Positions 33,836-55,713 of a stretch of DNA of 55,713 bases are shown piece by piece. A program made the position numbers and the translations under genes. Each line of letters opens with the position of its first letter. Within the stretch, counting starts at the first letter, position 1. The DNA lies in IMG/VR virus record IMGVR_UViG_3300037852_000225, positions 1 to 55,713 of that record. The stretch is one strand, 5' to 3'. This stretch comes from a virus. Its lineage: Duplodnaviria > Caudoviricetes. The notes beneath the pieces were generated by a model. It saw only the letters and a list, made by a program, of their open reading frames with translations. It was not told where the DNA came from and searched no databases.

Positions 33836-36800
33836 ATTGTTTAGGTAAAAGTGGACTATCTCCAGCGGAGAGGAACTATGTTCTGGCTCAACAGCAACTT
33901 CATATCAAATCAGGACTTGGCGAAGATGAAGCTGCCATCGAATCTGTAAAAAACCTGCATCATAAAACACTCGATTCACTAAACCAAGTTTATTCAGACC
34001 TTAAAATTAAAGGATATGCCGTTCCAAAGCGAAGCGCAACGAAGGATGATGTGGTTAAAGCACCCGGCGATAGCAGCAAGGTGGGCAAAGGAGATGAAGG
34101 CCAAGGGGCAAAGCCAGAAGAACCTGCCATACCACAAACACCAGGCACAACAGTCGTCCGCCATGGCACATCGGTAGAAGACACCCAGAATGTGCTTAGT
34201 GGCCAGAGTCAGACACCAATTACAGAAAAATCCAAAGCAGAAGAGATTCCGAAGCTAATACAAGACCTGCAAGACAAGGGAATTTCTCCTACAAAAGTAT
34301 ATTCTTCTGACCTCATGCGGGGAGCACAGACCGCTGCCGAGGTAGCAAAAGCGTTTGGCGCAGAGCATATTCAGGACCCTAATCTTCGCTCATGGGATCT
34401 TGGTGAGTTCTCTAAAACCGGGGATGAAGCGTTTAAACCAGCGCAGAGGTTCTTCGTTGACAACCCTGATGCTAAAGAATTTGAAGGTAAGAAACTGGGA
34501 GAATCATTCAATGAGTATAAGAACCGTGTTATCAAGGCCAGGAAAAATATCCCTGATGATCCGGCAAACTTGGTTGTGGACCATTCCAACAATATGGCAG
34601 TGAACGATGCCTATGAAAAAAATGGTAAGCAGTGGAACGACCAGGCTAAGGAAGACTACATGAGCACAAAAAATGCCGCTCCGGCTGAACTTCCAGACAA
34701 AACACTCATAAAAGATCAGCCGCAGGCTTTTAAAGATTTCTACGATACATTCAAAAATGAGATAAATTCGGTTAAAAATAGCGAGTACGATTGGCGGGTT
34801 AACATTCCGGATATGACGCAATCCGAAAGAGAAGCCGCTGTAAGGGATATAGATGCCGGCAAACAGACAAAACGAGCAGAAAAATTCCTTACCGCACTAA
34901 AAGAGCAGCATGACGACGGGAATATTCAGTATACAAGAGGCCGTGGAGCCAATGTTGAAAAAATGTCTATTCCTACCGCAAAATGGAATGAGGCGGAAGA
35001 ATATGTTGTAAGGGATATCGGTTCCGGTTTCATCCCAATGAAAGATATTGGAGATTTATTTGAACAAGAAATTAAACGCAATGATTATGGCAAAGAAAAA
35101 CTTCCAGATGTTTCAGAGTCACGTTCAGCAGACACCGGGCATAATGAAACTGATGCAAAGGCTGGACCGTCCACAGCAGGTGCAGGCGATGAAAAACGTG
35201 TACCACCGGATGGTAAAGGCAAAGGCAATGAGTCTAAGCAACAAGATAGAGGAAACGAACCCGTATCCACCAATTTCCGCACCAAAGACGAGTTTGAGTT
35301 AGGACTTAAAAAAGCCCTCAAAGGACCACCCTCCGATCCTGTTGTACCAAAGCTGGATGTCTCTGATGAGCAGATAAGGTATGCCCGGCGCAACAGTTAC
35401 CCAGAGTATAAGAAAAAATATGGTGGCACCCAGGACGAGTATAATATCGTCCGTGCCCAGAAGGCACTGGCTAAAGTTGGTGACCGTGGCCAAGGGGTAA
35501 CTCCTCCGCAATATGCCGATCCTGTTAAAGCACTTCAAACTATTCGTGCAGAGCATGACGACCCACTTATGAACCGGGCGGCTAACTTCTTGGAACCCAT
35601 AATGAAGGCCAACCCGAATATCCATATCGAAGACGCTGACCTTGGCGGGCGGGTGTTGGGTCTCTCTCATCCTGATGGCCGTATACAGGTTGATTTCTCG
35701 GCACACGGGAGCATGGAAGATGCTCACCGGACCATCCTGCACGAACTCTTTCACGCCGCTACGAGAAACGAAATTGAAAAGAATCCTGCTTTTCGTGGAG
35801 AAGTGAGGTCCATGCTTGAAGAAATAAGGAAACAGATGGGGCTCCCAAAAGGTAATGTTGGTGACGTGCTTATACCGGAACTGGTAAGGCGTGACATTAT
35901 CCCGGCTGATAAATATGGCACGTCTAATGAACATGAACTGATTGCAGAGGTGTTCTCCAATCAGAAGTTTCGTGATATGCTGGCTGATATGAAAGTTCCT
36001 GATGAACATAAAAAAAATATGCTCCAAAGGGTTTATGAAGGAATAGTCCGTTATTTCAACCGCCAGTATGATGCTCTTAAAAACCTGAAAGATAAGATTT
36101 CCGCTCCCAATATGGCTGAACACCTGATGCAACTTACCGAAGGAACAGTGAAGGGAGGAAAGACTGAAGGGGAGGCATTTCCAAAGCTGAAAGGTGCAGA
36201 TGAAGAAGACGCTATTGCAAATATGGTGAAGCGGGCACCTGATTCCATGACGGATCAGGAACTAAAAGAGTCAATAATGAAACATTCGTCTCTGGATGAG
36301 GCAAAAGTGGATGAGTTGATTAAGGCAAGAGGTCTTACGCCAGAGGTCAAATTGAGCCATGCAATTCAGGATATTGCAAAGAATAAAAAGACACTCGATG
36401 CAAAAATAGATGCTGCAAACAAATTGACAGCACAAGAAAAATCTGACATAGCAGGTTCAAAAGTAAGTTCTGCTATTTCACCAATTAAGAAAGTATTTGA
36501 TAAACTAAAATCGACAGCGATAGCAGTAAAAGACGCTTATGTAAACAAACCTGAATGGAAAAGCATGGATAAGGCTATTGGTGAATACAGTTACTCAAAG
36601 CAAAAAAATGATAAGGAAGTAATGGATATGGTAAATCATTTGACTAAAATGATTCCAGACAAAGGCAAAAGAGAAGCAATTTCTAACTGGATAGAAGCTG
36701 GTGGTGATATGAATATGTTAAAAGAAAGGGCTGAAAAATCGGATGCTAAACACAAGGGTGGTTACATATTGGCACAGCATTTAACACCATCTGAAATAGA

Positions 36801-38793
36801 GGTAGCTAAATCTGTAAACGATTATTTTGATTCCATGTTCAAGACAGGAAATGATGCTGGTATTCTAAAAAGTCAATTAGAGGATTATATGACTCATATA
36901 GGAGTTAAAAAAGACAACCCTGTAGCTAATCAATTATTGACTGATATTATGTCTGGTAAAATAAATACATCTTTTAAATATGCAAAAGAGAGGACATATC
37001 AGACGTTTTTCGATTTGGAGCAAGCTGGGTATAGCGCCAGAACAAAAGATTTTGCCAATATCCTTGGGGTATATTCTCAATCGTTTAATAAAGCTCTTTA
37101 TTCAAGAGCATTTATAAAAAATGCAACCGATGGTAAGGCTTCTGATGGTCGTCCATTACTGGTTCAGGCAGGAATGGGTAAACAAATAGCCAATAAAGAC
37201 TACCCACTTGTGGGCGAACCGACAGAAGCTATGATGGTGAACCCATTTACTGCACCAGAAAAATATTCTGATTATAGACCGATAAATCATTTTGCATTGA
37301 GAGATTGGTATTGGGCAACGAAAGATGATGCAGGTAACCCTGTTTTTGCAAAAGGAGACTTACTTGTTCATCCAGAGGAGTATAAAAGGCTTGGTAATAT
37401 TCTTGGGCATTCAGCACTTAAGGATTATGCTGTAGGCAGGGCCGCAATGTGGGGCTCTAATATCGTTAAGCGTACAATATTTTCAGTATCTCCATTTTTC
37501 CATTACGTACAGGAAGGAACACATGCTATAGGTCACACAATAAACCCAATATCGGGACTGAAAGATGTAAATTTTAATGATGAAACGCAAGCTAACTTAC
37601 TTAAACATGGGCTGAAGTTGTATGATTATGATTCGCAATCATCTTTTACCGAAGGGCTATCTGCAAACAATTTATTAAAAAATCTTCCTATTTATAATAA
37701 AACGATTCTTCCAATCCAAGAACATTTGTTTAATAGCTACATTCCAAGACTTAAGATGCAGACAGCATTACATGCTTTGGATAGAAATATGAAAAGAAAT
37801 CAAAATGCTTTGGTAAATGATAAAATATCCGAAGATGCTATTTATAGGCAGACAGGAGAGCAAATTAATGCTGCTTATGGTCACCTTAATTATGATATGA
37901 TTGGAAGAAATAAAACGGCACAAGATGTATTCAGTATGCTTGCTCTTGCACCTGATTTTCTTGAAGCAAGAGCAAGATTTGTAGGTCAGGCATTTACAAA
38001 GCATGGAACAGAGCAGGCAAGGGCGTTGATGGTTCTCGCTGCTACAATGTATGTTACAGCCAGGATACTTAATAAATCTATCGACGGTGATTATCATTTT
38101 GAAGAACCATTTGCCGTTATTCATGGAGGACAGAAATACCGACTTAGGAGTGTTCCTGAAGATATTTGGGAAATGATACATGACCCCGGAAGATTTATGT
38201 ATAACAGAATTTCACCTTACTCACAGATTTTATTTGAAGGTGCAACAAAATTCGATCCTGTTCGTGGCAGACAGATTGATTACAGCGAATGGCTTAAAGA
38301 TGCAGCTACAACGCCTTTGCCGACCGCAGGTAAAGAATTTCTTCCAGATTCATGGAATAAATTCCCTTCAAAAGAGGGGCATGAAAAATTATGGAACACT
38401 TTTATAAATACTATTGGAGTCAGAGAAAGCAAAGCCTACACCCCTACCGAACATGATATTATAGATAAATTTTATAAAAGATTTCCAAAGGGAGAACCAA
38501 CTGAAAGCGCAGTTACAGAGAGTAAAATTTATAAAGCAAATGAGGCTGGGAATGATGATAAGGTTGATGAATTGATGCAGAAGTTATCTCCAGAACAGCA
38601 AAAGTCAGTTAAGAAAAATCTTGAATCAGGTAAATCTGTTTATGAATCCATGTTTCAAAGGCTTCCAAAAGAAGATAAAATAAAATTATTTCAAAATATG
38701 ACTGACGAAGAAAAGGAAAAGTATGATCCTAAAGGTAAAATTCAGAAACTAATTGATGAAGGTGATGATAATTCAGAGAAGGGTACACCATGA
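33817..38793 (+). CDS. Large polyvalent (putative ejected) protein: histidine phosphatase + zincin metallopeptidase + helical C-terminal region
   Basis: VVRHG...YSSDLMRGAQTA...LRSWDLG...GESF...VDHSN (about 34147-34605); ILHELFH...EHELIAE (HExxH at 35740-35754). Confidence 0.8.
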   Translation: MPGGFIDCLGKSGLSPAERNYVLAQQQLHIKSGLGEDEAAIESVKNLHHKTLDSLNQVYSDLKIKGYAVPKRSATKDDVVKAPGDSSKVGKGDEGQGAKPEEPAIPQTPGTTVVRHGTSVEDTQNVLSGQSQTPITEKSKAEEIPKLIQDLQDKGISPTKVYSSDLMRGAQTAAEVAKAFGAEHIQDPNLRSWDLGEFSKTGDEAFKPAQRFFVDNPDAKEFEGKKLGESFNEYKNRVIKARKNIPDDPANLVVDHSNNMAVNDAYEKNGKQWNDQAKEDYMSTKNAAPAELPDKTLIKDQPQAFKDFYDTFKNEINSVKNSEYDWRVNIPDMTQSEREAAVRDIDAGKQTKRAEKFLTALKEQHDDGNIQYTRGRGANVEKMSIPTAKWNEAEEYVVRDIGSGFIPMKDIGDLFEQEIKRNDYGKEKLPDVSESRSADTGHNETDAKAGPSTAGAGDEKRVPPDGKGKGNESKQQDRGNEPVSTNFRTKDEFELGLKKALKGPPSDPVVPKLDVSDEQIRYARRNSYPEYKKKYGGTQDEYNIVRAQKALAKVGDRGQGVTPPQYADPVKALQTIRAEHDDPLMNRAANFLEPIMKANPNIHIEDADLGGRVLGLSHPDGRIQVDFSAHGSMEDAHRTILHELFHAATRNEIEKNPAFRGEVRSMLEEIRKQMGLPKGNVGDVLIPELVRRDIIPADKYGTSNEHELIAEVFSNQKFRDMLADMKVPDEHKKNMLQRVYEGIVRYFNRQYDALKNLKDKISAPNMAEHLMQLTEGTVKGGKTEGEAFPKLKGADEEDAIANMVKRAPDSMTDQELKESIMKHSSLDEAKVDELIKARGLTPEVKLSHAIQDIAKNKKTLDAKIDAANKLTAQEKSDIAGSKVSSAISPIKKVFDKLKSTAIAVKDAYVNKPEWKSMDKAIGEYSYSKQKNDKEVMDMVNHLTKMIPDKGKREAISNWIEAGGDMNMLKERAEKSDAKHKGGYILAQHLTPSEIEVAKSVNDYFDSMFKTGNDAGILKSQLEDYMTHIGVKKDNPVANQLLTDIMSGKINTSFKYAKERTYQTFFDLEQAGYSARTKDFANILGVYSQSFNKALYSRAFIKNATDGKASDGRPLLVQAGMGKQIANKDYPLVGEPTEAMMVNPFTAPEKYSDYRPINHFALRDWYWATKDDAGNPVFAKGDLLVHPEEYKRLGNILGHSALKDYAVGRAAMWGSNIVKRTIFSVSPFFHYVQEGTHAIGHTINPISGLKDVNFNDETQANLLKHGLKLYDYDSQSSFTEGLSANNLLKNLPIYNKTILPIQEHLFNSYIPRLKMQTALHALDRNMKRNQNALVNDKISEDAIYRQTGEQINAAYGHLNYDMIGRNKTAQDVFSMLALAPDFLEARARFVGQAFTKHGTEQARALMVLAATMYVTARILNKSIDGDYHFEEPFAVIHGGQKYRLRSVPEDIWEMIHDPGRFMYNRISPYSQILFEGATKFDPVRGRQIDYSEWLKDAATTPLPTAGKEFLPDSWNKFPSKEGHEKLWNTFINTIGVRESKAYTPTEHDIIDKFYKRFPKGEPTESAVTESKIYKANEAGNDDKVDELMQKLSPEQQKSVKKNLESGKSVYESMFQRLPKEDKIKLFQNMTDEEKEKYDPKGKIQKLIDEGDDNSEKGTP

Positions 38794-39379: not shown

Positions 39380-40201
39380 ATGATAACCAAGGTATGCAAG
39401 ATATGTAAAGTTGAAAAAGATATATCTGAATTTCATAAACAATCTAACCGACCATGGTATGAACCATATTGCAGACCTTGCGATAAGGAACGTAGAAGAG
39501 AATATAGGCTTAAAAATAAGGTAAAAATAGCAGCTGTACTAAAAAAGTGGCATGAGGATAACCGAGATATACAAAATGCTAAAAATAAAGCCAATTATCA
39601 TAAAAATAAAGAAGCAATTTGTGCAAAAAATAGAGAAGATAAGAAAGATAAATGGCCTGAAATATATAAAAGTAGAGCAGGATACCGAGAACGTACAAAA
39701 GAATACGCATCTGCATGGCAAAAGGAATATAGAAAAAAGAATAAGCAAAAACTCTCTGAATTAAATAAAAAATACAGAATTGAAAATGCAGAAATTTTAA
39801 AAATTAAAAGTAGAAGTTGGCTTGATAAAAATAAAGTTTTGGTTAGAGAAAGTAAAAAGAAGTATAAAAAAATGAAGATTGCTACAGATCCTGGTTATAA
39901 AATTAAATGTTTATTGCGAGGGCGTATATATAAAGCAATCAGAGGCTTAGATAAAAGGGAATCTACTTTAACTTTATTAGGGTGTTCTGTTGATTATTTC
40001 AAATCTTATTTCGAGTCTTTATTTACAGAAGGCATGAATTGGGATAAATTTATGAACGGAGAAATTCATATGGATCACATTAGACCGTGTGCTTCATTTG
40101 ATTTAACGATAGAGGAAGAGCAAAGGAAATGTTTTAATTATACTAATATTCAACCTTTGTGGGCTATGGATAATTTCATAAAAAGTAAAAAAATAGTTTA
40201 A
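39380..40201 (+). CDS. HNH endonuclease with Zn ribbon and long basic helical region
   Basis: KVCKICKVEK...CRPC; LLGCS...GMNWD...HMDHIRPCASFDL...FNYTNIQPLWAMDNFIK. Confidence 0.88.
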   Translation: MITKVCKICKVEKDISEFHKQSNRPWYEPYCRPCDKERRREYRLKNKVKIAAVLKKWHEDNRDIQNAKNKANYHKNKEAICAKNREDKKDKWPEIYKSRAGYRERTKEYASAWQKEYRKKNKQKLSELNKKYRIENAEILKIKSRSWLDKNKVLVRESKKKYKKMKIATDPGYKIKCLLRGRIYKAIRGLDKRESTLTLLGCSVDYFKSYFESLFTEGMNWDKFMNGEIHMDHIRPCASFDLTIEEEQRKCFNYTNIQPLWAMDNFIKSKKIV

Positions 40202-42246
40202 TGTTTTATCCGATTAAAGATGGCTCTGTTGAGCATGTGAACGAGTACAAATGTCAATTACCCACTGTTGGGTACGGGAAAAACCGGCTTACAGGTGAAC
40301 TTGAATATGTTGGCGTTATCAAGCGGTCTAATAAAAAAGAAGAACAATACTGGGAACGAATTGCACTTCCGAAAGATTGGGATAAAAAAGAGAAACTGGA
40401 AATGGAAATGCAGAAAGGTGATGCCAATTATTACGATCCAGAACTTGAAAAAATTCGTGAAAAGCATTGGAGATATAGGTTGTGCGGGTTATGGGTTATG
40501 ATTAACGGAGTTGCTACTTATATTCCATGCTCATTTTACTTTTACCTTAACTGGTGTCCGCTGGATATTGGCTATCCTGATTACTGGGAGAGTGACAGAA
40601 GGTTTTTTTATGTATGGGAATATTGCGTTGAAGATCCATATTGCGGCGGAATGATTGATATCGAAGGTCGTCGTTCAGGTAAGACGTTTAAAGCCGGGTC
40701 AATACTGCTTGATAGAGCTTCACTGTTTAAAAATCATCATGCAGGTATTCAGTCGAAAACGACCGTAGATTGTAAAGGTATATTTCAAAAGACAATAATT
40801 TCTTTCTTTAAAAAACTACCTTCTTTTTTCCGCCCTGTTTTCGATGAATCTCAAGGAGTGACCCCAAAATCTGAATTAAGATTTTTCAAAACAAATATTA
40901 AAGGAAGAAAAGCATTAAATATTTTAGGAGGTGTTGAGCTTGAATCTTGGATTGATTTCGGATCACATGAACCTTTATATTATGATGGTACAAAACTTAA
41001 TACCTATTTCATGGATGAGTATGGTAAAACAGAAGAATCTTCTGTCTGGGATAGATGGGAGTGTGTAAAATTTTGTTTAATGGATAAAGGGAAGTGGATT
41101 GGTAAAGCAATCCTTACCAGTACGATTGAGGAACAGGATAACCGGATGGATGACCCGAAAAAACTTTGGGAATATTCCGATCCTGAAGATAAAAATGCTA
41201 ATGGAAGAACAAAATCAGGATTATATAGATATTTTGTCCCATCGTATGAAAGGCCAATGATGAATGGAGATGAAAAGCTATACGATAATTTTGGCAAGCC
41301 TGATAAAGAAAAAACAATTCAATATATTTTGAATGAAAGAGAGGGCGTTCGGGACGATCCGCGTTCTTTATCAGCGTTAATCCGTAAGATGCCTATGAGC
41401 ATTGTTGAAGCCTTCAGAATAAATGCTGCCACCTGTTTATATGACGATATCAAACTAAATGACCAACTTGACCGAATTTCATGGAAAGATAATCTAACTG
41501 AAAAAGGATCATTTGCTTGGAAAGATGGTGAGCCATTTACTGAAATAGTATGGGAAAAATCAAAAACAGGTAGATTTGAGATGTGTAGTGCCTTTGTAAT
41601 GAAGGATGCAAACAAAGTGCTTAAGCAAAATGAACGGTATACTCCTAATAATAATTTAGCATTTGCAGCCGGCGTTGACCCTTTCAAGTATGATAAAGTG
41701 GCTGATAATCGTAGATCAGATTGCGCAGCTTTCATTTATAAAAAAAGAGACAGCGGAGATCCGAATAATATTTTTAATGATGCTTTTGTATGTAAGTACA
41801 CATACCGTGCACCTACAACGGCTATTCAATATGATGATATTATCAAAATGCTTTGGTTCTTCGGATGTCAGGCACTTTTTGAGCGCAACGTGGATTCATT
41901 TAAAGAATATTTTAAAGCTAAAAATTGCCAGAATTTTTTAATGTGGCTCCCCGGAGAGACAGAGCCGGGTCTGTACTCTGATGGTCATGGGAACATGATT
42001 CAATCATTAAGTGATTACACAGAAGCATATATCAATGAGTTTATTGAAAAAGTTTTTTTTAAAGACCTGATTAAAGATTGGCTCGAATTTGATGTTGGTA
42101 AGACTACCAAATTTGACCGGGCTATTGGGGCTGGTATGGCCCTTATTGCAACCAAAAGGCATCAACCGAAACAATATCAGAAAAAATCCAATGAAGTCAC
42201 CGATTACTTTAAAGTATACCGTTTAATAGGAGGGAATGCCGTATGA
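40201..42246 (+). CDS. terL: Terminase large subunit
   Basis: Walker A GRRSGKT, Walker B FMDEYGK, TST motif III, nuclease AGVDPF...FERN...KFD. Confidence 0.92.
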   Translation: MFYPIKDGSVEHVNEYKCQLPTVGYGKNRLTGELEYVGVIKRSNKKEEQYWERIALPKDWDKKEKLEMEMQKGDANYYDPELEKIREKHWRYRLCGLWVMINGVATYIPCSFYFYLNWCPLDIGYPDYWESDRRFFYVWEYCVEDPYCGGMIDIEGRRSGKTFKAGSILLDRASLFKNHHAGIQSKTTVDCKGIFQKTIISFFKKLPSFFRPVFDESQGVTPKSELRFFKTNIKGRKALNILGGVELESWIDFGSHEPLYYDGTKLNTYFMDEYGKTEESSVWDRWECVKFCLMDKGKWIGKAILTSTIEEQDNRMDDPKKLWEYSDPEDKNANGRTKSGLYRYFVPSYERPMMNGDEKLYDNFGKPDKEKTIQYILNEREGVRDDPRSLSALIRKMPMSIVEAFRINAATCLYDDIKLNDQLDRISWKDNLTEKGSFAWKDGEPFTEIVWEKSKTGRFEMCSAFVMKDANKVLKQNERYTPNNNLAFAAGVDPFKYDKVADNRRSDCAAFIYKKRDSGDPNNIFNDAFVCKYTYRAPTTAIQYDDIIKMLWFFGCQALFERNVDSFKEYFKAKNCQNFLMWLPGETEPGLYSDGHGNMIQSLSDYTEAYINEFIEKVFFKDLIKDWLEFDVGKTTKFDRAIGAGMALIATKRHQPKQYQKKSNEVTDYFKVYRLIGGNAV

Positions 42247-44561
42247 CATCAACGCAAAATAACTATGACGAACAGGGGCCGTGGTTTTTCCCACGGCATG
42301 ATATCGATCCAAAAGACAAGGACGAAGCATGGGCCCGGTCCTATGCCTGGGCGGCATGGCATGATTTTACGGCGGCGGTTCCAAAGTCGGTATTCTATAA
42401 TTCGTATGACAAATATGAGCAGTACAGGCTGTATGCTTTAAGTAAGCAGCCGATCAATGTTTACAGGGAACTGATGGGAATTGACGAGGAGCAGAAAGAT
42501 ACGTTTATGCCGATAGACTGGACGGCGCCAGCTTTTGTAAGTAAATATAGGAGTATTGCTATTTCAAGGTTGGTACAGCAGGAATATGGAATTGTCTGCA
42601 CACCCATTGATCCCACTGCCAAAGGAGAACTGGCTAAACTGTATGCAAAACTGAAAGCTAAAATTGCTGTGCGCCAGATGATGCAGCAGCAGAATCCTGA
42701 ACTGGCGCAGCATCCGGCAGTGCAACCCGCTGGTAATGAGCCATGGGATGAAGAGGAACTGCAAATGCGAATAGATTTTGGGGAACAGTTTAACCGGGCA
42801 AAGGATGCGGAAGAAGCTATTGCATTGGCATTTTACGAGAATGGTGTCAAAGAGGTTAGAAAAAAATGGTTTGAAGATTTCTTCGACTGCGGAGTAGCTG
42901 GGTATTATGAAGGACTGGACGATCACAGTAGGCCATACTTCCGGTTTATAGACCCAGAATGTATTGTCACCAATTACTGCAAGTTCAAAGACTTCCGTGA
43001 CTTGCAACATGCGGGAGAAGTGATTGACGTTTCGATAACTGACCTTGCCACCAAAACAAAGTCAGACGGGACGCCTATCTTCACAGACGAACAATTACTC
43101 GACCTTGGGACAAATGTAGCCGGCAAATGGAATAATCCTTCATTTGTCAGTCGGAGCACATCTTACTATAAAGGCTATGACCATTTTAAATGCAAGGTGC
43201 TGCAACTTGAATTTTTCTCATACAATGATATCGTATGGAAGGATTCTACCAACTGGAATGGGAATATCACTTTTAAAGAGTCAAAGTATAGCAATCTAAA
43301 CAGAGATGTGCCAAATACTGAAAAAAATACAAAATATACCAGTAAAAAAATAAAGGTCGTATACAAAATAAACTGGGTAGTGGGAACTAATTATTCCTAT
43401 GGATTCGAGCTTAAAAAGAATCAAAAAAGGTCAGTCAACCCAAAGAAAATGGGGGAAACGGAGTTGTCATACCGCTTTTATGCCCCTAATTTCTACCAGA
43501 TGAGAGCCCAGGGACAGATGGAGAAACTGATTCCATTTATCGACCAGTGCTGCCTTACCTGGTACAGGATACAGAATTTCAAAGCCAGAATGGTCCCTTC
43601 AGGATGGTGGATAGACCTCGCTGCATTGGAGCAGGTGGCTCTAAGCAAAGGAGGAGAGAACATGACATCCAAACAGCTTATTAATATGTTCTTCCAGTCC
43701 GGGATTTTGGCTGGCCGTTCGGATCTCATGGGAGACATTAATAATCCGAATTACAAACCTATTATCCCAATAGAAAACAGTGTTGCACAGGAACTTGCCG
43801 GACTATATCAAGATTTGGAGATGAATATCAATAAGATTGAAGGGATATGCGGTTTTAATGCTGTGACCATGGGGGGTGACACCAGAAGGACGCCTGTGCC
43901 AGGGGTTGAAAGCGCCAATGTATCGACCGACAACGCGCTATTCGAGATGGCAAATGGAGAGAGGTTTTTGCTTGAAAAACTTGCCGAAGATATGGTAAAA
44001 CGCATACAGCAGTCTGTTAAACTGACTGGGTATGAAGGATACGCGCCTGCCTTGAATAAGAGCACATTGCAATTTATATCCGTTTCAAAAGACCTTCCAC
44101 TTCGGGATTATGGAATAATGACTGAAGAGCGTCCGACTGATAATGAAAGACAATTCCTGATTCAAAATTCCCAGCAGGACCGGGCAGCGGGGTTCCTTGA
44201 TACATCGGATATGATGATACTGCTTAATACGTATAATTTCAAGCAGGCCCAGGAAATGATAGCCCTAAAGGTTAAGAAAAATAAGCAGGCCCAGGCAGCG
44301 GAAAAACAGGCAATTACCGCCCAGACCATTCAAGGGCAACAGCAATCGGCGCAGGTATCCGGTCAGATTCAAATGCAGCTTGAGCAAATGAAAGAACAAT
44401 CCGCCATGGAACTGGCGAATGTTACTGGTAGGTTTAACACCATCATAGCCGAGATAAAAGCGAAACAACTCGCCCAAGCAGCGGAATGGAAAACACAGAT
44501 GGAGCTTATTCAGCATATTATTCCACCGGCACAACAGTCTGAACAGGCGGCAGCACAATGA
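42243..44561 (+). CDS. Portal protein (crAss-like)
   Basis: 772 aa directly after TerL; LYALSKQPI, HAGEV, FFQSGI, ICGFN, C-terminal Gln-rich barrel helix. Confidence 0.85.
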   Translation: MTSTQNNYDEQGPWFFPRHDIDPKDKDEAWARSYAWAAWHDFTAAVPKSVFYNSYDKYEQYRLYALSKQPINVYRELMGIDEEQKDTFMPIDWTAPAFVSKYRSIAISRLVQQEYGIVCTPIDPTAKGELAKLYAKLKAKIAVRQMMQQQNPELAQHPAVQPAGNEPWDEEELQMRIDFGEQFNRAKDAEEAIALAFYENGVKEVRKKWFEDFFDCGVAGYYEGLDDHSRPYFRFIDPECIVTNYCKFKDFRDLQHAGEVIDVSITDLATKTKSDGTPIFTDEQLLDLGTNVAGKWNNPSFVSRSTSYYKGYDHFKCKVLQLEFFSYNDIVWKDSTNWNGNITFKESKYSNLNRDVPNTEKNTKYTSKKIKVVYKINWVVGTNYSYGFELKKNQKRSVNPKKMGETELSYRFYAPNFYQMRAQGQMEKLIPFIDQCCLTWYRIQNFKARMVPSGWWIDLAALEQVALSKGGENMTSKQLINMFFQSGILAGRSDLMGDINNPNYKPIIPIENSVAQELAGLYQDLEMNINKIEGICGFNAVTMGGDTRRTPVPGVESANVSTDNALFEMANGERFLLEKLAEDMVKRIQQSVKLTGYEGYAPALNKSTLQFISVSKDLPLRDYGIMTEERPTDNERQFLIQNSQQDRAAGFLDTSDMMILLNTYNFKQAQEMIALKVKKNKQAQAAEKQAITAQTIQGQQQSAQVSGQIQMQLEQMKEQSAMELANVTGRFNTIIAEIKAKQLAQAAEWKTQMELIQHIIPPAQQSEQAAAQ

Positions 44562-49623: not shown

Positions 49624-50843
49624 GTGACCTGTCTGGTGTCATATCGTTCTCGATTGTGATGGACAAATCACAATCTCCCAGTAAATTAAAATTTATCGAC
49701 AACTCGTCATACCCAATTGGAGTTTCTACTACTGTTACAGGAATAATTTCAATCACGCAGCCGGACGGTGTTACCATCAACGGAAATTTTGCGACCCCTG
49801 ATGTATTTTGGTCTGGTAGTAGTCTCACGCAACCTTTAAAAGAACTAAGACTCGATACAGCAGGAAACTTCCAAAATGGCGCCTACACAATCGTCTATAC
49901 TGTAAGAGCGCCAGGGTATTCCGATACTGTGCTTACGAAATCATTTTCACTTCAGTATACACCTCCCATCCCGATTGTAACACAAGGATTCGATTTATTC
50001 ACCCCCCGTTTAGTCGTCACAGATAGCACCAGTTACGGACAATCAGGATTCAATTTCCTGTCTACAACATGGCAATGGGCGTCTACAATATATTCAGTAA
50101 ATGGAACTCCTCAAACTATTGCCGGAAGTTTACAGACTTTCGATTTGAATTATCAGGGAAGTTATTATGACGCTAAATATACTGTCAACCTAACGGTTAT
50201 CCCAAGCTGGCAGATGGCAGGATTGAACTCATGGGTGACATTAATTGATTCACTGGCTATTCCACAACAAATTTATTACGCTGAAATTCCACCTTCTTAT
50301 ACTGTATTGCTTCAGGGACTCGATGCAATGAAAACGGCTCTTGACGCTGCCAGTTGTAATAACAATGAAGTGTTGACAGAAAATTATTTGCTGGCAGAAG
50401 CGATTTTTTCTCATTATGCGGCCCGTGGGTGCGCCGGAGATTTGGCAGGTCTTAGCTATTATGTTTACCAACTTCAGAAATTATTTAATGGAGGTACAAT
50501 TCCTCCTTATGTAAATACCAATGCTGTTATTCCGGCTTATGTATGGAGTAATTGCAGCGGCGGAAGTTCATCTTGGTCAGGGATTACAGGCAAACCTTCA
50601 ACGGCTGTTATTGAATGGGTGGTAGGAACGGGTGGGTTCCCCGGAAATGGAGCCACAACTCTTACAGATGCAAGGCTGGCTAATGCAAATGTAAGAGTGT
50701 TCAGGAGTGGGCTTAAACAGCTTGGTTCAAATCCTGGAGACGGGACATCTTACTATACTAAAGTTTTCGGAAGTTATGTAGTGTTTTTCTTCCCCGCGCT
50801 GTCAACGGGAGAGGTTTTAAGCGTGGAAAATATCCCCTTGTAA
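49620..50843 (+). CDS. Putative tail hub/fibre-attachment structural protein
   Basis: Beta-rich, NGAYTIVYTV, WSGITGKP fibre-like motif, C-terminal VRVFRSG domain; directly before the fibre gene. Confidence 0.55.
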   Translation: MSDLSGVISFSIVMDKSQSPSKLKFIDNSSYPIGVSTTVTGIISITQPDGVTINGNFATPDVFWSGSSLTQPLKELRLDTAGNFQNGAYTIVYTVRAPGYSDTVLTKSFSLQYTPPIPIVTQGFDLFTPRLVVTDSTSYGQSGFNFLSTTWQWASTIYSVNGTPQTIAGSLQTFDLNYQGSYYDAKYTVNLTVIPSWQMAGLNSWVTLIDSLAIPQQIYYAEIPPSYTVLLQGLDAMKTALDAASCNNNEVLTENYLLAEAIFSHYAARGCAGDLAGLSYYVYQLQKLFNGGTIPPYVNTNAVIPAYVWSNCSGGSSSWSGITGKPSTAVIEWVVGTGGFPGNGATTLTDARLANANVRVFRSGLKQLGSNPGDGTSYYTKVFGSYVVFFFPALSTGEVLSVENIPL

Positions 50844-53800
50844 ATGAAAAAATTAATCATCATATTACTTCTCTTTGGTTCTGCATACGGTCAGAACATT
50901 TCTGTCATTCAAGGGTTGGGCGGTCCAACGACTGAAATTTGGGTAAAAGGGGTTCTCAAGATAGATACAGCGATGGTATGGCCATCTAAAGACACCTTGT
51001 TTACACCTTCTCAGATATTCACAGTTGTCGTGCGTCCACAGGATAAGACGCCTTATATGTGGATCGGCGTCAGATGGGTAGCTTTTGCGCTAACAGGTGG
51101 CACTTATGTGAACTCATTCAACGGAAGGGTCGGCGTTGTGATTCCTTCAAATGGAGACTATACGGCCGCAATGGTAACAAATGCAGTTGACCAGACACAG
51201 GTTTATAACGATCCAACCTGGCTAAACTCACTTTCATATAGCAAACTTATAGCGGTTCCGGCAACACAGACTTTTCTATCCGGATATGGAGTTAATGTGA
51301 CTGGCGGTCCTGCATTCAGCTTCAAATTTGATTCGGCGACCGTACACCCTGTAACTAATATTATTAAGGTCAATGACTCCACCATTGGGTTTACAATAAA
51401 TAATAGACCTACCCAAACGATTCTGATACGGGGAAATGGTGGTGGGACCGGAGGAATAGGAACAGTCACTAATTTTATTTTTACACAGGCAAATGGCATT
51501 TCAGGGTCAGTAACGACCAGCACCAGCACTCCCAATTTGACACTCGGAACATCCGTGAATGGGCTTGTATCAGGCAATGGTGTGGCTTTTTTGCCGACAG
51601 TCATTGGCGCTGGCCTTAGTTATGTTGGAACGACCCTTACCAATACAATCATAAATAATAATCAACTTGCCAATGGATCAAACTTCATAAGCAATATTTC
51701 TGGACTTGTTCAGCCTGGCACCGGACCAATTACACTGACGGGAGCCGGCACACAAGGCAATCCTTATGTTATAAGCGTGGGTGCTTCAGTCGGAGGCGGT
51801 GGCAGTTCAGACTCATTGAAACATTTATTTGTTGACACATCTGCTGCGCCAAGGAATGGATTTGTACTGACATTCGACAGTGTAAACCATAAATGGTATC
51901 TTTCTTCAAAGGGGGGCGGTGCCGGTGGGTCAGTGACACAGTTTGCTTTTACCAATGGAGCTGGGTTTACCGGATCAGTCTCAAATCCTACCACTACCCC
52001 AACTCTTTCGCTTACCATGCAAAATGCAGTTGCCGATGGTGCCACAAAGGGGATAGCTGCGTTTACGACAAATGATTTCCTTTCAGCAAGCGGCGTCATT
52101 TCACTAAACTATGCAGCGGGGCAGAAAGCCACTGGGTCGGTCCCTGGATTCCTGTCGGCGACAGACTGGACGACATTTAATAATAAATTTTCAGGGACAC
52201 TCGCAAACGGAAGTATATTTATTGGAAATATATCAAATTTGGCTACCGCCCAAGTCATGAGCGGCGATGCTACCTTGTCAAATACCGGGGTTATTACCAT
52301 ATCTAACAGTGCTGTGACTTATGCCAAAATGCAGAATGAGACTTCTGCAACAATGCTGGGAAGATATGCCGGGACCAATGGCGTCGTGCAGGAAATAACT
52401 ATTGGAAATGGTATTGCGCTTAATTCAGGAACCGGGGTGCTGTCAGTCAGAATAAATGCGCCGCTTATATTTTCGTCTGGCATTATTACAGCCGATACTA
52501 CCATGACAAATACCTCGCTGGTGACCTATTATCAGCTTACTCATGGTGTGAGGGACTCTATTTTCGTATTAAATGCGGGATCGGCTATCACAAGAATAGG
52601 ATGGGCTTCTGGAAGCGATACTATTTATCTTGGCGGTCTGAAGAACTCGTCAAATATAAATTGGAGTAAAGGAACCGATTCCACTGAAACCGCACAGTTG
52701 ACAACTACCGGAGTGACAGCAGGTTCTTATGTAAACGTATCGGCAACCGTGGATGCGTTCGGAAGAATAACTGCCATGAGCAATGGATCCGGAGGGACTG
52801 TTGTGTCGTCTGTTTCCAGCACTCTTAGTTCGATAACATTCTCACCAACCACTGGAGCAGTATTGGGGGATATCAATCTTGGCCATGCCAATTCATGGAC
52901 GGCAGCACAGAGTTTTGCCGTATTAAACGCATCCAATACAGTCACTTTTACAGGAACGACTTTCAATGCAGGAGGGACGAAGTTCGATGTGATGATTCAG
53001 GATACAACGACAGGTATCTTGTATAGGGAACCTTACTGGCAGACGGATACAACTGGATATGCAGCAGGAAATTTATTTGTAAAATTCAATGGTACAAAAT
53101 TTATTTTAAGTGCTGGTAGTGGAGGTGGAACTCAAAACTTTGAATCCGTTTTAAGTCAGGCTCCAACGAGACTTCTCCAAGACCATTCCAATACATGGAA
53201 TAACCACATCTGGACTAATGATAGTCTGGGGTCATGGAAATACCCTCATCCGGTAGCATCTTTGAGTAGCCCTGTTTTTTATATTGCACCCGATTCAAAT
53301 ACAAACCCAAATAATATAGTTATTTTAAGGGTAGACCAGATTCATAAAAAAAATAACTATGCTCCATTTATGATGGAAATGCTCCCTACGGGAAACGGGG
53401 ACGGAACGGACGATTACGTTTACGCTTACGGGTTTAATATAGATCAGATTTATGATGCGAATGCACTTTCTTTTTCCCGAAGGATGGAATATCGTTATTT
53501 GAATACTCTAATGGAAGAACACCTTCAGCTTAGCTTACCGGGGCGTGAAATATGGAGGGAACAATCTGTTACGGTTAGTACATCAGACTCAATCAAGCGA
53601 AGTACAGGTCTTGAGGCTCATCAAATCAATGCTATTGAGTTCAGGAGTTTAGCCGGTCAGGGAGCAGGAGCTTATGTAGCTTTTAATGACAACCTTGCAG
53701 CTACAACTGCTAATGTTACAATAAGTGAGGCTACTGCGGCTAACTTCAATTTACAAACAGGTTCATCAGGTCAATATACCGGAAGTATAGTAATGCTTGC

Positions 53801-54839
53801 TGCGAGTAGTGGTTTGATGGCTTTTCAAACTGCAACAGGATATACTTTTGATAATCTCGTTCAGCATCTTAATGTAGGCGGCGCTAATGGAGCTTCTGAA
53901 TTTGATTTAATGAGAAGCGATAATACCCCTTTGATGTTTAAACAATACGGAGCCACTTTTACAAACTATAACAACAGATTCAGACTGGCTTATAATGACG
54001 GTACTAATGACATAATGGTTATCCTTCCAAAAAATACCACTACTAATAATCACGATATTCAGCTAGGAGCCATATCAGGAGGAAACTATGCAGATCAGGG
54101 CGGGTCAATGCTTCAGGTATATGGCGGCCTTTACACACAGGCTGATTTTTATTCCGCAGCCGTTCAGGGAACTTCTTATCTCGTAGATAATACGACAATT
54201 TCCGATCCGGTAACAGCTAATAGCGGAACAAGGCCTAGAGTTTCAAATGTGGCTTTTCTTCAGTCCACACTAACAGCTACGCATACGGCAGTTGTATATA
54301 CTGTTGGCAGTAGCTTGTTCGTTCAGGGTCCGCCGATAGCAAGTACAAACGTAACGATAACAAATCCTTACGCTATTGAAATAGGATCAGGATCGCTTTC
54401 AATAGATTTCGATGCTACGCATAACACAACTTTTTCTACAAATTCAACTGGCAATTTAGTAATCACTCCTTCTTCAACGGCTATTATGCCAAACGCAAAT
54501 ATCTCTTACGATTTAGGAACGTCTGCTGCTAACTGGAGAAATGTATATGTAGGCGCTGTCATAGGGGCAAATAATAACGGAGGCGATGCTAATACTTCTA
54601 TTGGTGCTGCTTCTACGACACAGAAACTTCCAACTGTAACTGCTAACCGGACAGTTACGCTTCCGACGATGATACAAGGTCAATGGATTGATATTCTTGT
54701 AACCAATACATCAGGAACATTCCATTGGAGTTTCACTAATACGGTTATTGATATGAGTGGCAACACAATCACAAATCTGGTTAATGGTACAGCCTACAGA
54801 ATTTATTGGGACGGAACAAATTATATAAAAGGAAATTAA
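50844..54839 (+). CDS. Large fibre-like protein with N-terminal Sec signal peptide
   Basis: MKKLIIILLLFGSAYG-Q signal; VNSFNGRVGVV, GFLSATDWTTFNNK, SGDATLSNTG, TGVTAGSY...VDAFGRIT, YDLGTSAANWRNVY fibre motifs. Confidence 0.75.
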   Translation: MKKLIIILLLFGSAYGQNISVIQGLGGPTTEIWVKGVLKIDTAMVWPSKDTLFTPSQIFTVVVRPQDKTPYMWIGVRWVAFALTGGTYVNSFNGRVGVVIPSNGDYTAAMVTNAVDQTQVYNDPTWLNSLSYSKLIAVPATQTFLSGYGVNVTGGPAFSFKFDSATVHPVTNIIKVNDSTIGFTINNRPTQTILIRGNGGGTGGIGTVTNFIFTQANGISGSVTTSTSTPNLTLGTSVNGLVSGNGVAFLPTVIGAGLSYVGTTLTNTIINNNQLANGSNFISNISGLVQPGTGPITLTGAGTQGNPYVISVGASVGGGGSSDSLKHLFVDTSAAPRNGFVLTFDSVNHKWYLSSKGGGAGGSVTQFAFTNGAGFTGSVSNPTTTPTLSLTMQNAVADGATKGIAAFTTNDFLSASGVISLNYAAGQKATGSVPGFLSATDWTTFNNKFSGTLANGSIFIGNISNLATAQVMSGDATLSNTGVITISNSAVTYAKMQNETSATMLGRYAGTNGVVQEITIGNGIALNSGTGVLSVRINAPLIFSSGIITADTTMTNTSLVTYYQLTHGVRDSIFVLNAGSAITRIGWASGSDTIYLGGLKNSSNINWSKGTDSTETAQLTTTGVTAGSYVNVSATVDAFGRITAMSNGSGGTVVSSVSSTLSSITFSPTTGAVLGDINLGHANSWTAAQSFAVLNASNTVTFTGTTFNAGGTKFDVMIQDTTTGILYREPYWQTDTTGYAAGNLFVKFNGTKFILSAGSGGGTQNFESVLSQAPTRLLQDHSNTWNNHIWTNDSLGSWKYPHPVASLSSPVFYIAPDSNTNPNNIVILRVDQIHKKNNYAPFMMEMLPTGNGDGTDDYVYAYGFNIDQIYDANALSFSRRMEYRYLNTLMEEHLQLSLPGREIWREQSVTVSTSDSIKRSTGLEAHQINAIEFRSLAGQGAGAYVAFNDNLAATTANVTISEATAANFNLQTGSSGQYTGSIVMLAASSGLMAFQTATGYTFDNLVQHLNVGGANGASEFDLMRSDNTPLMFKQYGATFTNYNNRFRLAYNDGTNDIMVILPKNTTTNNHDIQLGAISGGNYADQGGSMLQVYGGLYTQADFYSAAVQGTSYLVDNTTISDPVTANSGTRPRVSNVAFLQSTLTATHTAVVYTVGSSLFVQGPPIASTNVTITNPYAIEIGSGSLSIDFDATHNTTFSTNSTGNLVITPSSTAIMPNANISYDLGTSAANWRNVYVGAVIGANNNGGDANTSIGAASTTQKLPTVTANRTVTLPTMIQGQWIDILVTNTSGTFHWSFTNTVIDMSGNTITNLVNGTAYRIYWDGTNYIKGN

Positions 54840-55169: not shown

Positions 55170-55274
55170 AGTCACAAATAAACAATAGAAAATCAATAGA
55201 AAAATGTATAAAGTTACCTTAACGATAGGCCAATGGTTAGATTTTTTGAAGAACTTTATGAAAACAAACAAATT

Positions 55275-55713
55275 ATGTGGAAAAAACGTGAAATAATAGA
55301 CATTAAAGGAATGGTATTTGGAAAATTAACTGTATTGGAATTTTCTAAAATGACAGTTCAAGGGGCTGCTGTATGGAAATGTCAATGTGAATGCGGTAAA
55401 ATTGTAGATAAGGTTGGTGTACTTCTAAGAGCTGGGAAGATTAAAAGTTGCGGGTGTTCCAGAATGGAAAATATGTTAAAGGCAATTACTAAGCATGGTG
55501 AAGCAAGAAAAGGACTAATGACAAAGGAACGAATATCTTGGGGGTCAATGAGAGCGAGATGCTTTAATTCTAATAATATCGCTTACAGCAATTACGGAGG
55601 CAGAGGCATAACTGTTTGTCAAAGATGGGCTAATTCATTTGAAAATTTCTTAAAAGATATGGGTAGAGCACCTTCAAGTAAACATTCACTTGATAGATAC
55701 CCAAATAATGATG
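55275..55713 (+). CDS. Partial HNH-type endonuclease (truncated by window end)
   Basis: Manual translation: FGKLTVL...WKCQCECG...KSCGC...WGSMRARC...NYGGRGITVCQRW..SFENFLKDMG...HSLDR. Confidence 0.88.
   Translation, partial: MWKKREIIDIKGMVFGKLTVLEFSKMTVQGAAVWKCQCECGKIVDKVGVLLRAGKIKSCGCSRMENMLKAITKHGEARKGLMTKERISWGSMRARCFNSNNIAYSNYGGRGITVCQRWANSFENFLKDMGRAPSSKHSLDRYPNND

What the first reader, a model, noticed from the sequence alone, without database searches (positions are those of the whole stretch)
50844..54839. Tail-fibre-like protein with a Sec signal peptide and enrichment for Bacteroidota O-glycosylation sequons
Seen: a classic signal peptide (MKKLIIILLLFGSAYG/Q) on a protein otherwise built from phage-fibre motifs, in the tail operon. 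By hand count there are 14 D-(S/T)-(A/I/L/M/T/V) motifs among about 34 Asp in the first about 930 aa, and none in the distal about 400 aa. Established: this is the sequon of the general, extracytoplasmic Bacteroidota O-glycosylation system, Gln at +1 is typical of Bacteroidota SPI substrates, and tail fibres normally fold and attach in the cytoplasm. Inference: the fibre may be exported, glycosylated by the host in the periplasm and loaded onto virions only at lysis, or displayed on the infected cell. I do not know this maturation route to be described.
Basis: partly seen in the sequence, partly recalled or inferred. Interest (0 to 1): 0.82.

Follow-up and report, generated by a model that had tools for sequence, protein, structure and literature searches.

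The report
Exported, sequon-rich phage tail fibre
An uncultured 77-kb phage of Bacteroidota makes its tail-fibre-like host-recognition protein with the host's own secretion signal and about three times the chance number of the host's sugar-attachment motif, so it probably matures outside the cytoplasm, which is not how tailed-phage parts are known to be made.

Summary
The ORF at 50844-54839 encodes 1331 aa starting MKKLIIILLLFGSAYG|Q. It has 14 D-(S/T)-(A/I/L/M/T/V) sequons, all in aa 1-930 (34 Asp), and none in the last 401 aa. Shuffles expect 5.1 (P=0.0003).

Signal and sequons are conserved. All 17 proteins sharing its N-terminal module have a 16-19-aa signal with Gln at +1, then a near-invariant mature N-terminus. 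Their pooled sequon count is 247 against 82 expected. Six of P0001's sequons are kept in 10/12 to 16/16 relatives. Fibre-like homologues without a signal show no excess (1.03 against 2.15), and decoy motifs show none.

The gene sits at a fixed place, stop-to-start after a conserved structural gene, in five related 74-79-kb viral contigs. It was found in none of 185,579 species genomes.

Export is well supported. Glycosylation is inferred. Loading onto virions is untested. However, three signal-bearing proteins of the distantly related cultured Cellulophaga phage phi18:3 are annotated as virion proteins by mass spectrometry.

The density matches the host's exported proteins and does not exceed it. 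This scan noted the same pattern before on other DNA, in at least 16 genomes. My paper searches found no description of it.

The parts
50844..54839 (+). P0001, 1331-aa fibre-like protein with export signal (stop codon included)
   Evidence: Mosaic homology to phage fibre modules.
50844..50891 (+). Signal peptide, aa 1-16 (MKKLIIILLLFGSAYG), predicted SPI cleavage before Gln17
   Evidence: Rule-based reading. 17 of 17 family members have the same layout. The co-assembled genome follows the Q-rule: 430 of 832 against 194 of 2542. The AF2 model is confident only for a helix at aa 2-12.
50892..51923 (+). Conserved base of the mature protein (aa 17-360). It carries six conserved sequons: D41, D50, D163, D178, D323, D345.
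   Evidence: 14 representatives plus P0003 match from residue 1. Alignment A1. Sequon conservation 16/16, 12/16, 16/16, 16/16, 14/16, 10/12.
52008..52448 (+). Generic phage-fibre repeat modules (aa 389-535)
   Evidence: Shared at 45-70% identity with many fibre-like proteins, some of which carry PF03406, PF13884 or PF19264. Weak DUF5907 hit at aa 472-537, E=0.0015, below the cut-off.
50964..53594 (+). Span holding all 14 sequons (aa 41-917)
53634..54836 (+). Distal part without sequons (aa 931-1331, 18 Asp), presumed receptor-binding end
   Evidence: P(0)=0.17 at chance rate and 0.007 at the protein's own rate. Family members are also sequon-poor in their last 400 aa: 41 observed, and 30.1 expected by my hand sum of the per-protein values printed.
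54588..54836 (+). Last 83 aa, repeated at 93% identity at the end of a second, truncated fibre gene at the other contig end
49620..50843 (+). P0059, 407-aa conserved structural-operon gene without signal, stop-to-start with P0001
   Evidence: 43-52% identical homologues directly before the signal-bearing fibre gene in 5 of 5 related contigs.
40201..44561 (+). Large terminase (40201-42246) and portal (42243-44561), which head the operon
   Evidence: phrog_6681 E=8e-86. phrog_6547 E=1.5e-51.

Best explanation
P0001 is the variable-tip, conserved-base receptor-binding fibre of an uncultured ~77-kb phage of Bacteroidota, distantly related to flavobacterial podophages.

Proposed route:
- It is made as a Sec preprotein.
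- Signal peptidase I cuts after Gly16, and Gln17 is cyclised to pyroglutamate.
- The fibre folds in the periplasm.
- There the host's general O-glycosylation system decorates up to 14 D-S/T-X sites on its proximal two thirds. The distal receptor-binding end stays bare.
- Capsid and tail assemble in the cytoplasm.
- Fibre and particle meet only when the holin and endolysin breach the envelope. The fibre then docks by its near-invariant mature N-terminal segment.

Shown here: the signal, the sequons, their conservation, and the gene's fixed place in the operon.
Inferred: cleavage, glycosylation, presence in the virion, and docking after lysis.

My odds: exported 0.85-0.9; glycosylated about 0.65; virion part about 0.55; the whole chain about 0.45.
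For: SIGNAL
- The n/h/c layout, with a small residue at -1 and Gln at +1, is present in 17 of 17 family members. The hydrophobic core varies in sequence, while the following residues (QTIQYLGSPTTQIYVRGQLRVDT) are near-invariant.
- The co-assembled genome obeys the Q-rule and has 26 T9SS C-terminal-domain matches over the cut-off.

SEQUONS
- P0001 has 14 against 5.1 expected.
- The family totals 247 against 82.2.
- Six sites are kept with S/T and +2 swaps.
- Among 200 stored proteins, the 61 with a signal plus Gln give 544/253 = 2.15. The 129 without give 511/498 = 1.03 (Mann-Whitney P=1.8e-9).
- Six decoy motifs show no such gap; G[ST]X shows a small one, 1.25 against 1.03.
- The review PMC12871550 (passages) states that the motif is modified only in non-cytoplasmic proteins, is nearly fully occupied, and is used when engineered in.

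FIBRE OR VIRION ROLE
- Shared phage-fibre modules.
- Enzyme domains typical of receptor-binding proteins in family members: GDSL esterase and pectate-lyase-like.
- Same position after terminase, portal, a 445-aa protein at 60-65% identity and the P0059 homologue, with touching or overlapping stop and start, in 5 of 5 related viral contigs.
- No locus in 185,579 species genomes.
- Phi18:3 gp085, gp086 and gp087 start with Q-rule signals. The GenBank record calls them structural by MS/MS.
- In crAss001 the fibre docks by its first 26 residues (PMC10172136 passages).
Against: - There are no proteomic, glycoproteomic or export data for this phage.
- Signal calls rest on my own crude rules and crude ORF calling, not on SignalP.
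- The sequon density does not exceed that of the host's exported proteins (P=0.12). It argues for export, not for a special adaptation.
- 7 of 61 signal-bearing fibre-like proteins are sequon-poor.
- The three phi18:3 proteins have 3 sequons against 9.8 expected.
- A signal-less repeat protein of this phage (32969-33835) also has 14 sequon-like triplets.
- Cultured relatives do it the ordinary way. The MS-verified fibres of phi40:1 have no signal and O/E about 1. crAss001 gp22 keeps residues 1-26.
- P0059, which has no signal, could be the true fibre.
- I could not read the phi18:3 proteomics paper (not held). Purity of the particles and peptide coverage are therefore unknown to me.
- The link to the host genome rests on binning only. 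There is no BLAST match between the contig and the rest.
Confidence: 0.45

Rival explanations
1. The protein is exported and glycosylated but is not a virion part. It would act in the periplasm or on the surface of the infected cell. Possible roles: a receptor-destroying or receptor-masking enzyme-fibre that blocks superinfection and keeps progeny from sticking to debris; an aid to release through capsule or slime; or a surface-displayed fibre like the MAT fibres of Bdellovibrio.
For: - The evidence for export is the same as above.
- Family members carry polysaccharide-active domains: GDSL esterase, SASA and pectate-lyase-like.
- Neighbouring exported proteins P0002 and the 700-aa lipoprotein look like depolymerases and lie beside an M15 endolysin-like gene.
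- MAT fibres have a signal peptide, a conserved ~130-aa domain directly after it, and mosaic tips, and they are displayed on the cell (PMC10769870 abstract and passages).
- P. gingivalis prophages encode Q-rule proteins thought to alter the host envelope (PMC10367356 passages).
- P0059, without a signal, could serve as the virion fibre.
Against: - The gene has a fixed, translationally coupled place at the end of the head-tail operon in 5 of 5 relatives.
- It has the conserved-base, swapped-tip design typical of virion receptor-binding proteins.
- No T9SS C-terminal domain or other outer-membrane export signal was found.
- No locus was found in bacterial genomes, so it is not a lysogenic-conversion gene.
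- Signal-bearing proteins of phi18:3 are recorded in virions.
Confidence: 0.33
2. The protein is not exported. The hydrophobic N-terminus would be an uncleaved membrane tether or assembly handle, or the true start would lie downstream. The D-S/T-hydrophobic triplets would then be a structural motif of the fibre shaft, not glycosylation sites.
For: - Tailed-phage fibres normally fold in the cytoplasm (established knowledge).
- A signal-less repeat protein of this phage accumulates the same triplet.
- Several sequons sit in invariant columns, which would also fit a purely structural role.
- No signal predictor or experiment was available.
Against: - Small residues at -1 and Gln at +1 occur in 17 of 17 members, with a variable core and an invariant mature start.
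- The first ATG abuts the upstream stop here, and overlaps or touches it in all relatives.
- The triplet excess tracks the presence of a signal among homologous fibre modules (2.15 against 1.03) and is specific to the full sequon.
- S/T and +2 residues swap within the allowed set at conserved sites.
Confidence: 0.1
3. The contig is bacterial, or the gene is a captured host surface protein with no phage role.
For: The contig lies in a bacterial genome bin.
Against: - The contig carries terminase, portal, virion-protein PHROGs, Prim-Pol and HNH genes throughout, and I saw no host housekeeping gene among the ORFs scanned.
- The family was found only in 74-79-kb viral contigs and in no species genome.
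- Nothing similar exists elsewhere in the bin.
Confidence: 0.02

Closest known systems
Cellulophaga phage phi18:3 (Pachyviridae, NC_021794.1) gp085, gp086, gp087
   Same: These are large proteins (547, 785 and 559 aa) starting with Q-rule signal peptides. They lie in a phage whose terminase is 29% identical to this one's, and they sit near the lysis genes. The record annotates them as structural or tail proteins from MS/MS of virions. Their first 60-115 residues match PHROG families named tail fiber or pectate lyase.
   Different: P0001 gave no tblastn match anywhere in the phage collection. The phi18:3 proteins are sequon-poor, with 3 against 9.8 expected. They lie upstream of the terminase, not after the head genes. 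I could not read the proteomics paper.
Substrates of the general O-glycosylation system of Bacteroidota (review PMC12871550) and SPI substrates obeying the Q-rule (PMC5837995)
   Same: P0001 has a signal with Gln at +1 and the D-S/T-(A/L/V/I/M/T) motif, at a density like that of the co-assembled genome's exported proteins.
   Different: P0001 is encoded by a lytic-type phage, inside its structural operon. The review does not contain the words phage or virus.
Bdellovibrio bacteriovorus mosaic adhesive trimer (MAT) fibres (PMC10769870)
   Same: They are phage-fibre-like proteins with a signal peptide, a conserved domain directly after it, and mosaic variable tips.
   Different: They are cellular genes of a predator and are displayed on its own surface. 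They come from another phylum, with no O-glycosylation sequon story. Sequence relatedness to P0001 was not tested.
crAss001 tail fibre gp22 (PMC10172136)
   Same: It is the fibre of a Bacteroidota podophage and docks on a tail hub by its extreme N-terminal segment. The 1123-aa protein of this phage has a weak, sub-threshold match to the crassvirus muzzle C-terminal domain.
   Different: gp22 is seen with residues 1-26 in the hub, so no signal was removed. The paper never uses the term 'signal peptide' and has no word beginning 'glycosyl'.
Q-rule proteins of Porphyromonas gingivalis prophages (PMC10367356)
   Same: They are phage-encoded proteins with signals predicted to expose Gln, read as adaptation to the host's Sec pathway.
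   Different: They are five genes of unknown function in temperate phages, proposed to alter the host envelope. The paper never uses the term 'tail fiber' and has no word beginning 'glycosyl'.
Filamentous-phage g3p, and mycobacteriophage virion glycosylation (both recalled, from no call)
   Same: g3p is a Sec-exported receptor-binding protein. Mycobacteriophage capsid and tail proteins carry glycans.
   Different: g3p joins a virion that is extruded through the membrane, not a tailed particle built in the cytoplasm. Mycobacteriophage glycans are added by phage-encoded transferases in the cytoplasm, not by a host periplasmic system.

Membership tests
Sec/SPI substrate obeying the Bacteroidetes Q-rule | Basic n-region, uncharged hydrophobic core, small residues at -3 and -1, Gln at +1 | tested here: met
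   P0001 has KK, a 13-residue core, and A at -3, G at -1, Q at +1. 17 of 17 family members have a small residue at -1 and Q at +1. This is a rule-based reading, without SignalP.
Sec/SPI substrate obeying the Bacteroidetes Q-rule | Actual cleavage and pyroglutamate formation | not testable with these tools
   This needs N-terminal mass spectrometry.
Sec/SPI substrate obeying the Bacteroidetes Q-rule | The host is a Bacteroidota that uses the rule | tested here: met
   In the co-assembled genome, 430 of 832 signal-like ORFs have small-x-small|Q, against 194 of 2542 controls. There are 26 T9SS CTD matches over the cut-off. The nearest terminases and portals are all from phages of Flavobacteriia. 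The link to this particular genome rests on binning only.
Substrate of the Bacteroidota general O-glycosylation system | D-(S/T)-(A/I/L/M/T/V) motif in a soluble, non-cytoplasmic region | tested here: met
   14 motifs, six of them conserved. The non-cytoplasmic location is inferred from the signal.
Substrate of the Bacteroidota general O-glycosylation system | Glycan attached to the Ser/Thr | not testable with these tools
   This needs glycoproteomics or a mobility shift in a glycosylation mutant.
Phage tail fibre / receptor-binding protein | Homology to fibre modules, and a conserved base with a variable tip | tested here: met
   The only direct Pfam hit is sub-threshold: DUF5907, 19.1 bits against a cut-off of 27.
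Phage tail fibre / receptor-binding protein | Encoded in the virion structural operon | tested here: met
   The gene follows terminase, portal and conserved head-region genes here and in 5 of 5 relatives.
Phage tail fibre / receptor-binding protein | Trimeric fibrous fold | tested here: inconclusive
   The AF2 model of aa 1-500 has mean pLDDT 33.9. There were no PDB sequence matches.
Phage tail fibre / receptor-binding protein | Present in the virion | not testable with these tools
   The only precedent is by analogy with phi18:3.
T9SS cargo | C-terminal sorting domain (TIGR04183 or TIGR04131) | tested here: not met
   An NCBIfam scan of P0001, P0002, P0060 and P0061 at E<=0.1 gave no hit to any sorting-domain model. 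I assume, without having checked, that the library includes TIGR04183 and TIGR04131. None of the 27 genome matches to TIGR04183 lies on the phage contig.
Crassvirales | Crassvirus-type virion genes | tested here: inconclusive
   There is only a sub-threshold crAss_MUZ_C match: 22 bits against a cut-off of 27.

The most novel reading that the evidence does not exclude
A whole clade of tailed phages of Bacteroidota routes its host-recognition fibres through the host Sec pathway. The fibres are pyroglutamate-capped and O-glycosylated by the host in the periplasm. They are mounted on cytoplasmically built particles only when the envelope is breached. This would be a two-compartment assembly line and a host-made glycan coat on a tailed-phage receptor-binding protein. 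Some lineages embrace the host sequon and others (phi18:3, 7 of 61 homologues) purge it.
Probability: 0.4. Interest if true: 0.9.

Novelty: new variant of a known kind. Interest (0 to 1): 0.78.

Why it matters
Tailed-phage particles are held to be completed in the cytoplasm. A fibre that matures in the periplasm and carries host glycans would add a new assembly step. It would also add a new layer of host dependence, since phage infectivity would hinge on host Sec, signal peptidase, glutaminyl cyclase and glycosylation genes.

It would offer a new explanation for host range and immune or protease resistance of Bacteroidota phages, which dominate gut, soil and marine viromes.

It has practical weight too. 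Fibres of such phages expressed in E. coli cytoplasm would lack their native processing.

The idea is directly testable in a cultured system (phi18:3 on Cellulophaga baltica) and by re-reading existing virion mass spectra.

Tried and rejected
STRUCTURE
- Structure prediction was not accepting jobs. Once accepted, the models were too poor to use: P0001 aa 1-500 had mean pLDDT 33.9 and P0059 had 46.4. I ran no fold search on them.
- Sequence searches of the PDB with P0001 and with profiles A3 and A1 found nothing at E<=1.
- The ESM Atlas gave no usable lead for P0059.

COMPLEX
The result was no verdict (score 0.00), which is neither for nor against binding.

CULTURED COUNTERPARTS
- tblastn of P0001, P0017 and P0035 against 50,697 phage records gave none, three short unrelated hits, and none.
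- Phi40:1 gp097, which has the same length as P0001, proved to be an unrelated protein without a signal.

EXPRESSION
- No RNA holder is listed for the stretch.
- Laying contigs of two soil-metagenome runs showed only that a second study's contigs are identical over 50371-52075, signal included.

REJECTED READINGS
- T9SS cargo: no C-terminal sorting domain.
- Prophage or lysogenic-conversion gene: no locus in species genomes and no copy in the bin.
- Sequon excess caused by internal repeats in P0001: the 14 sites have unrelated contexts. This differs from P0058.

LITERATURE
- Searches found no paper describing a signal-bearing or host-glycosylated tailed-phage fibre.
- PMC6199706 states the opposite for phage DGR targets: no signal peptides.
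- PMC12386605, PMC9853417, PMC5723332, PMC4615864 and PMC8143477 held nothing relevant in the passages I saw.
- The phi18:3 proteomics paper (Holmfeldt et al. 2013, recalled) is not held. Its supplements may bear on peptide coverage.

EARLIER NOTES
- Look-ups of earlier notes by place and by sequence returned nothing.


Full report
WHAT IS THERE

The ORF at 50844-54839 (+) encodes 1331 aa (P0001). Its ATG directly follows the TAA of the upstream gene. The window is the reverse strand of a 76,998-bp contig (39.5% G+C) in a 4.4-Mb, 157-contig genome bin.

The contig reads as phage throughout:
- large terminase (phrog_6681, E=8e-86);
- portal (phrog_6547, E=1.5e-51);
- virion-protein PHROGs, Prim-Pol, a C5 methylase, several HNH genes and an M15 endolysin-like gene.

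The nearest terminases and portals are all below 30% identity. They belong to phages of Flavobacterium, Cellulophaga, Tenacibaculum and Maribacter.

Nothing on the contig matches the rest of the bin, and the stretch is held by soil-metagenome runs. The link to that particular host therefore rests on binning and similar G+C. The bin is clearly Bacteroidota. It has 26 T9SS C-terminal-domain matches over the cut-off. The Q-rule also holds: 430 of 832 signal-like ORFs have small-x-small|Gln, against 194 of 2542 controls.

THE OBSERVATION

The hand count is exact: 14 D-(S/T)-(A/I/L/M/T/V) motifs, all within aa 41-915. There are 34 Asp in aa 1-930, and 18 Asp with no motif in aa 931-1331.
- Residue shuffles expect 5.13 +/- 2.14 (P=0.0003).
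- Block shuffles give P<=0.0004.
- Of 16 D-(S/T) dipeptides, 14 continue with an allowed residue, against 5.1 expected. Decoy motifs sit at expectation.
- The N-terminus MKKLIIILLLFGSAYG|QNIS has the full n/h/c layout.

I had no SignalP. All signal calls here are rule-based.

CALIBRATION

With crude ORF and signal rules, signal-like ORFs of the bin have sequon O/E 1.90 (n=973). The others have 1.26 (n=2542). This fits the published enrichment of the motif in non-cytoplasmic proteins of the phylum (PMC12871550, passages).

P0001 (O/E 2.72) departs from the cytoplasmic rate (P=0.007) but not from the exported rate (P=0.12). The likelihood ratio for exported over cytoplasmic is about 12. The sequons are therefore evidence that the protein evolves as an exported protein. 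They are not evidence of an unusual load.

On the contig, my rule flagged 13 ORFs, and by eye I kept 7 as having a signal. Those 7 total 37 against 12.3. The other 94 total 69 against 51.0. The latter figure includes 14 triplets from a tandem repeat in a signal-less protein (32969-33835). That is a warning that the triplet can pile up for other reasons.

CONSERVATION

P0001 is mosaic. Widely shared pieces (aa 85-143, 389-450, 449-535) are generic phage-fibre modules. They also occur in proteins carrying PF03406, PF13884 or PF19264.

An exhaustive search with aa 1-360 gave 538 hits at E<=0.001. Among the 150 listed, 14 representatives plus P0003 match from residue 1. Adding the syntenic P0060 gives a family of 17.
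- All 17 have a 16-19-aa signal with A, G or S at -1 and Gln at +1.
- The hydrophobic core is variable and the mature start is near-invariant.
- All 17 have sequon O/E between 2.06 and 3.77. Together they total 247 against 82.2.
- P0001's first six sequons are kept in 16/16, 12/16, 16/16, 16/16, 14/16 and 10/12 aligned relatives. Ser/Thr and +2 residues swap inside the allowed set.

I then pooled all stored proteins except four unrelated ones (P0058, P0059, P0062, P0063). The pool includes P0001 and the non-homologous neighbours P0002 and P0061.
- 61 proteins with a signal plus Gln have 544 against 253 (O/E 2.15).
- 129 proteins without a signal have 511 against 498 (O/E 1.03).
- 10 ambiguous proteins were left out.
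- Mann-Whitney P=1.8e-9.
- Six decoy motifs show no comparable gap. G[ST]X differs slightly, 1.25 against 1.03.

Against a simple picture, 7 of the 61 are sequon-poor. The last 400 aa of family members are only weakly enriched: 41 observed, and 30.1 expected by my hand sum of the values printed. Four of the 17 have none there.

CONTEXT

In five related viral contigs the order is always the same:
- terminase;
- portal;
- a ~375-aa protein;
- a 445-449-aa protein, absent from one locus where my ORF picker took an opposite-strand frame (60-65% identical where present);
- a ~300-aa protein;
- the P0059 homologue (43-52% identical);
- the signal-bearing fibre, with touching or overlapping stop and start.

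Four of the contigs are 74-79 kb. One is an 11.6-kb fragment that starts in the portal gene.

The family gave no locus in 185,579 species genomes. It is thus a core late gene of a lytic-type phage clade, not a lysogenic-conversion gene.

Family members swap in GDSL-esterase or pectate-lyase-like domains. That is the cassette design of receptor-binding proteins.

Other fibre- or depolymerase-like genes carry signals too:
- on this contig, P0002 (19 sequons against 4.3) and a 700-aa lipoprotein;
- on the relatives, P0061 (19 against 3.3) and others.

No T9SS sorting domain was found.

DOES IT REACH THE VIRION?

There is no direct evidence. Two cultured relatives frame the question.
- In phi40:1 the MS-verified fibre proteins gp085 and gp087 have no signal and chance-level sequons.
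- In phi18:3 (terminase 29% identical), gp085, gp086 and gp087 begin with Q-rule signals. The record annotates them as structural or tail proteins from MS/MS. Their N-terminal modules match PHROGs named tail fiber or pectate lyase. They are sequon-poor, with 3 against 9.8 expected.

The phi18:3 lead came from earlier notes of this scan, and I checked it myself. I could not read the proteomics paper.

In crAss001 the fibre docks by its first 26 residues. That makes the invariant mature N-terminus here a natural docking candidate.

Structure and complex predictions gave nothing usable.

READING

Export by Sec and SPI is well supported (my odds 0.85-0.9). Glycosylation follows from published properties of the host system and is inferred (about 0.65). 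A virion role is favoured by position and design and by the phi18:3 precedent (about 0.55). The full route of periplasmic maturation followed by docking at lysis stands at about 0.45.

The main rival is an exported protein that never joins the virion: a receptor-destroying, exclusion or release factor, or a surface fibre like the Bdellovibrio MAT proteins. I put this at about 0.33.

KNOWN OR NEW

Q-rule signals on phage proteins have been noted for P. gingivalis prophages, on genes of unknown function. I found no paper describing a signal-bearing or host-glycosylated fibre of a tailed phage. The O-glycosylation review does not mention phages. Earlier agents of this scan reached the same reading on other DNA, in at least 16 genomes.

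Noticed in passing
window 32969-33835 (+): A 288-aa protein without a signal is built of about ten tandem repeats (K-A/S-DSVTSSD-x-V-V/I-K...). It carries 14 sequon-like triplets and matches phrog_12240 (unknown function). It sits just before the 1658-aa protein.
   Followed up: partly
L003:11405-15268 (-), contig C95 outside the window: P0002 (1287 aa) has an N-terminal Q-rule signal and a second, internal signal-like stretch at about aa 222-256. After that come a GxSxG motif, a PKD domain (PF22352) and a beta-helix-like end. It has 19 sequons against 4.3 expected. It may be two fused exported proteins, or it may have an internal start.
   Followed up: partly
L003:15939-18041 (-): A 700-aa protein has a lipoprotein-type signal, a Pro-rich linker and a depolymerase-like body. 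It has no family hit. Sequons are 2 against 1.3 expected.
   Followed up: no
window 54588-54836 and L003:19748-19999 (-): The contig ends inside a second fibre gene. Its last 83 aa are 93% identical to the end of P0001. The assembly probably broke at this repeat, so the phage genome is incomplete between the HNH gene at the window's end and this copy.
   Followed up: partly
window 55233-55712; 31280-32020; 39380-40201; 9786-10322; 11384-11986; 4-936; L003:15265-15939 (-): There are many HNH or NUMOD homing-endonuclease-like genes. Two of them lie between the receptor-binding-type genes.
   Followed up: no
window 12683-13255 (-) and 14924-15574 (-): There is a TylF/Methyltransf_24-type methyltransferase and a weak glycosyltransferase-2 match, in a cluster of early-strand genes. 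These could modify sugars or DNA. Any link to the fibre's glycans is pure speculation.
   Followed up: no
window 33817-38793 (+): A 1658-aa protein has a histidine-phosphatase domain (PF00300, aa 113-258). It sits where relatives have giant virion proteins.
   Followed up: no
window 18813-19079 (-) and 19548-20228 (+): There are two GroES/Cpn10-like genes. The second has a 140-aa N-terminal extension. Relatives (phi40:1, phi18:3, elemo phages) also carry chaperonin genes.
   Followed up: no
L003:10536-10982 (-) and L003:18031-19741 (-): A Peptidase_M15_4 endolysin-like gene without a signal lies right after P0002. A run of small membrane-protein ORFs (holin candidates) lies after the second fibre copy.
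   Followed up: partly
homologue set and phi18:3 L014:2892-8584: Signal-bearing fibre-like proteins fall into sequon-rich and sequon-poor groups. Seven of 61 have O/E below 0.6, several of them with 0 against about 5 expected. The three phi18:3 proteins have 3 against 9.8. This hints that some lineages avoid the host's glycosylation motif.
   Followed up: partly
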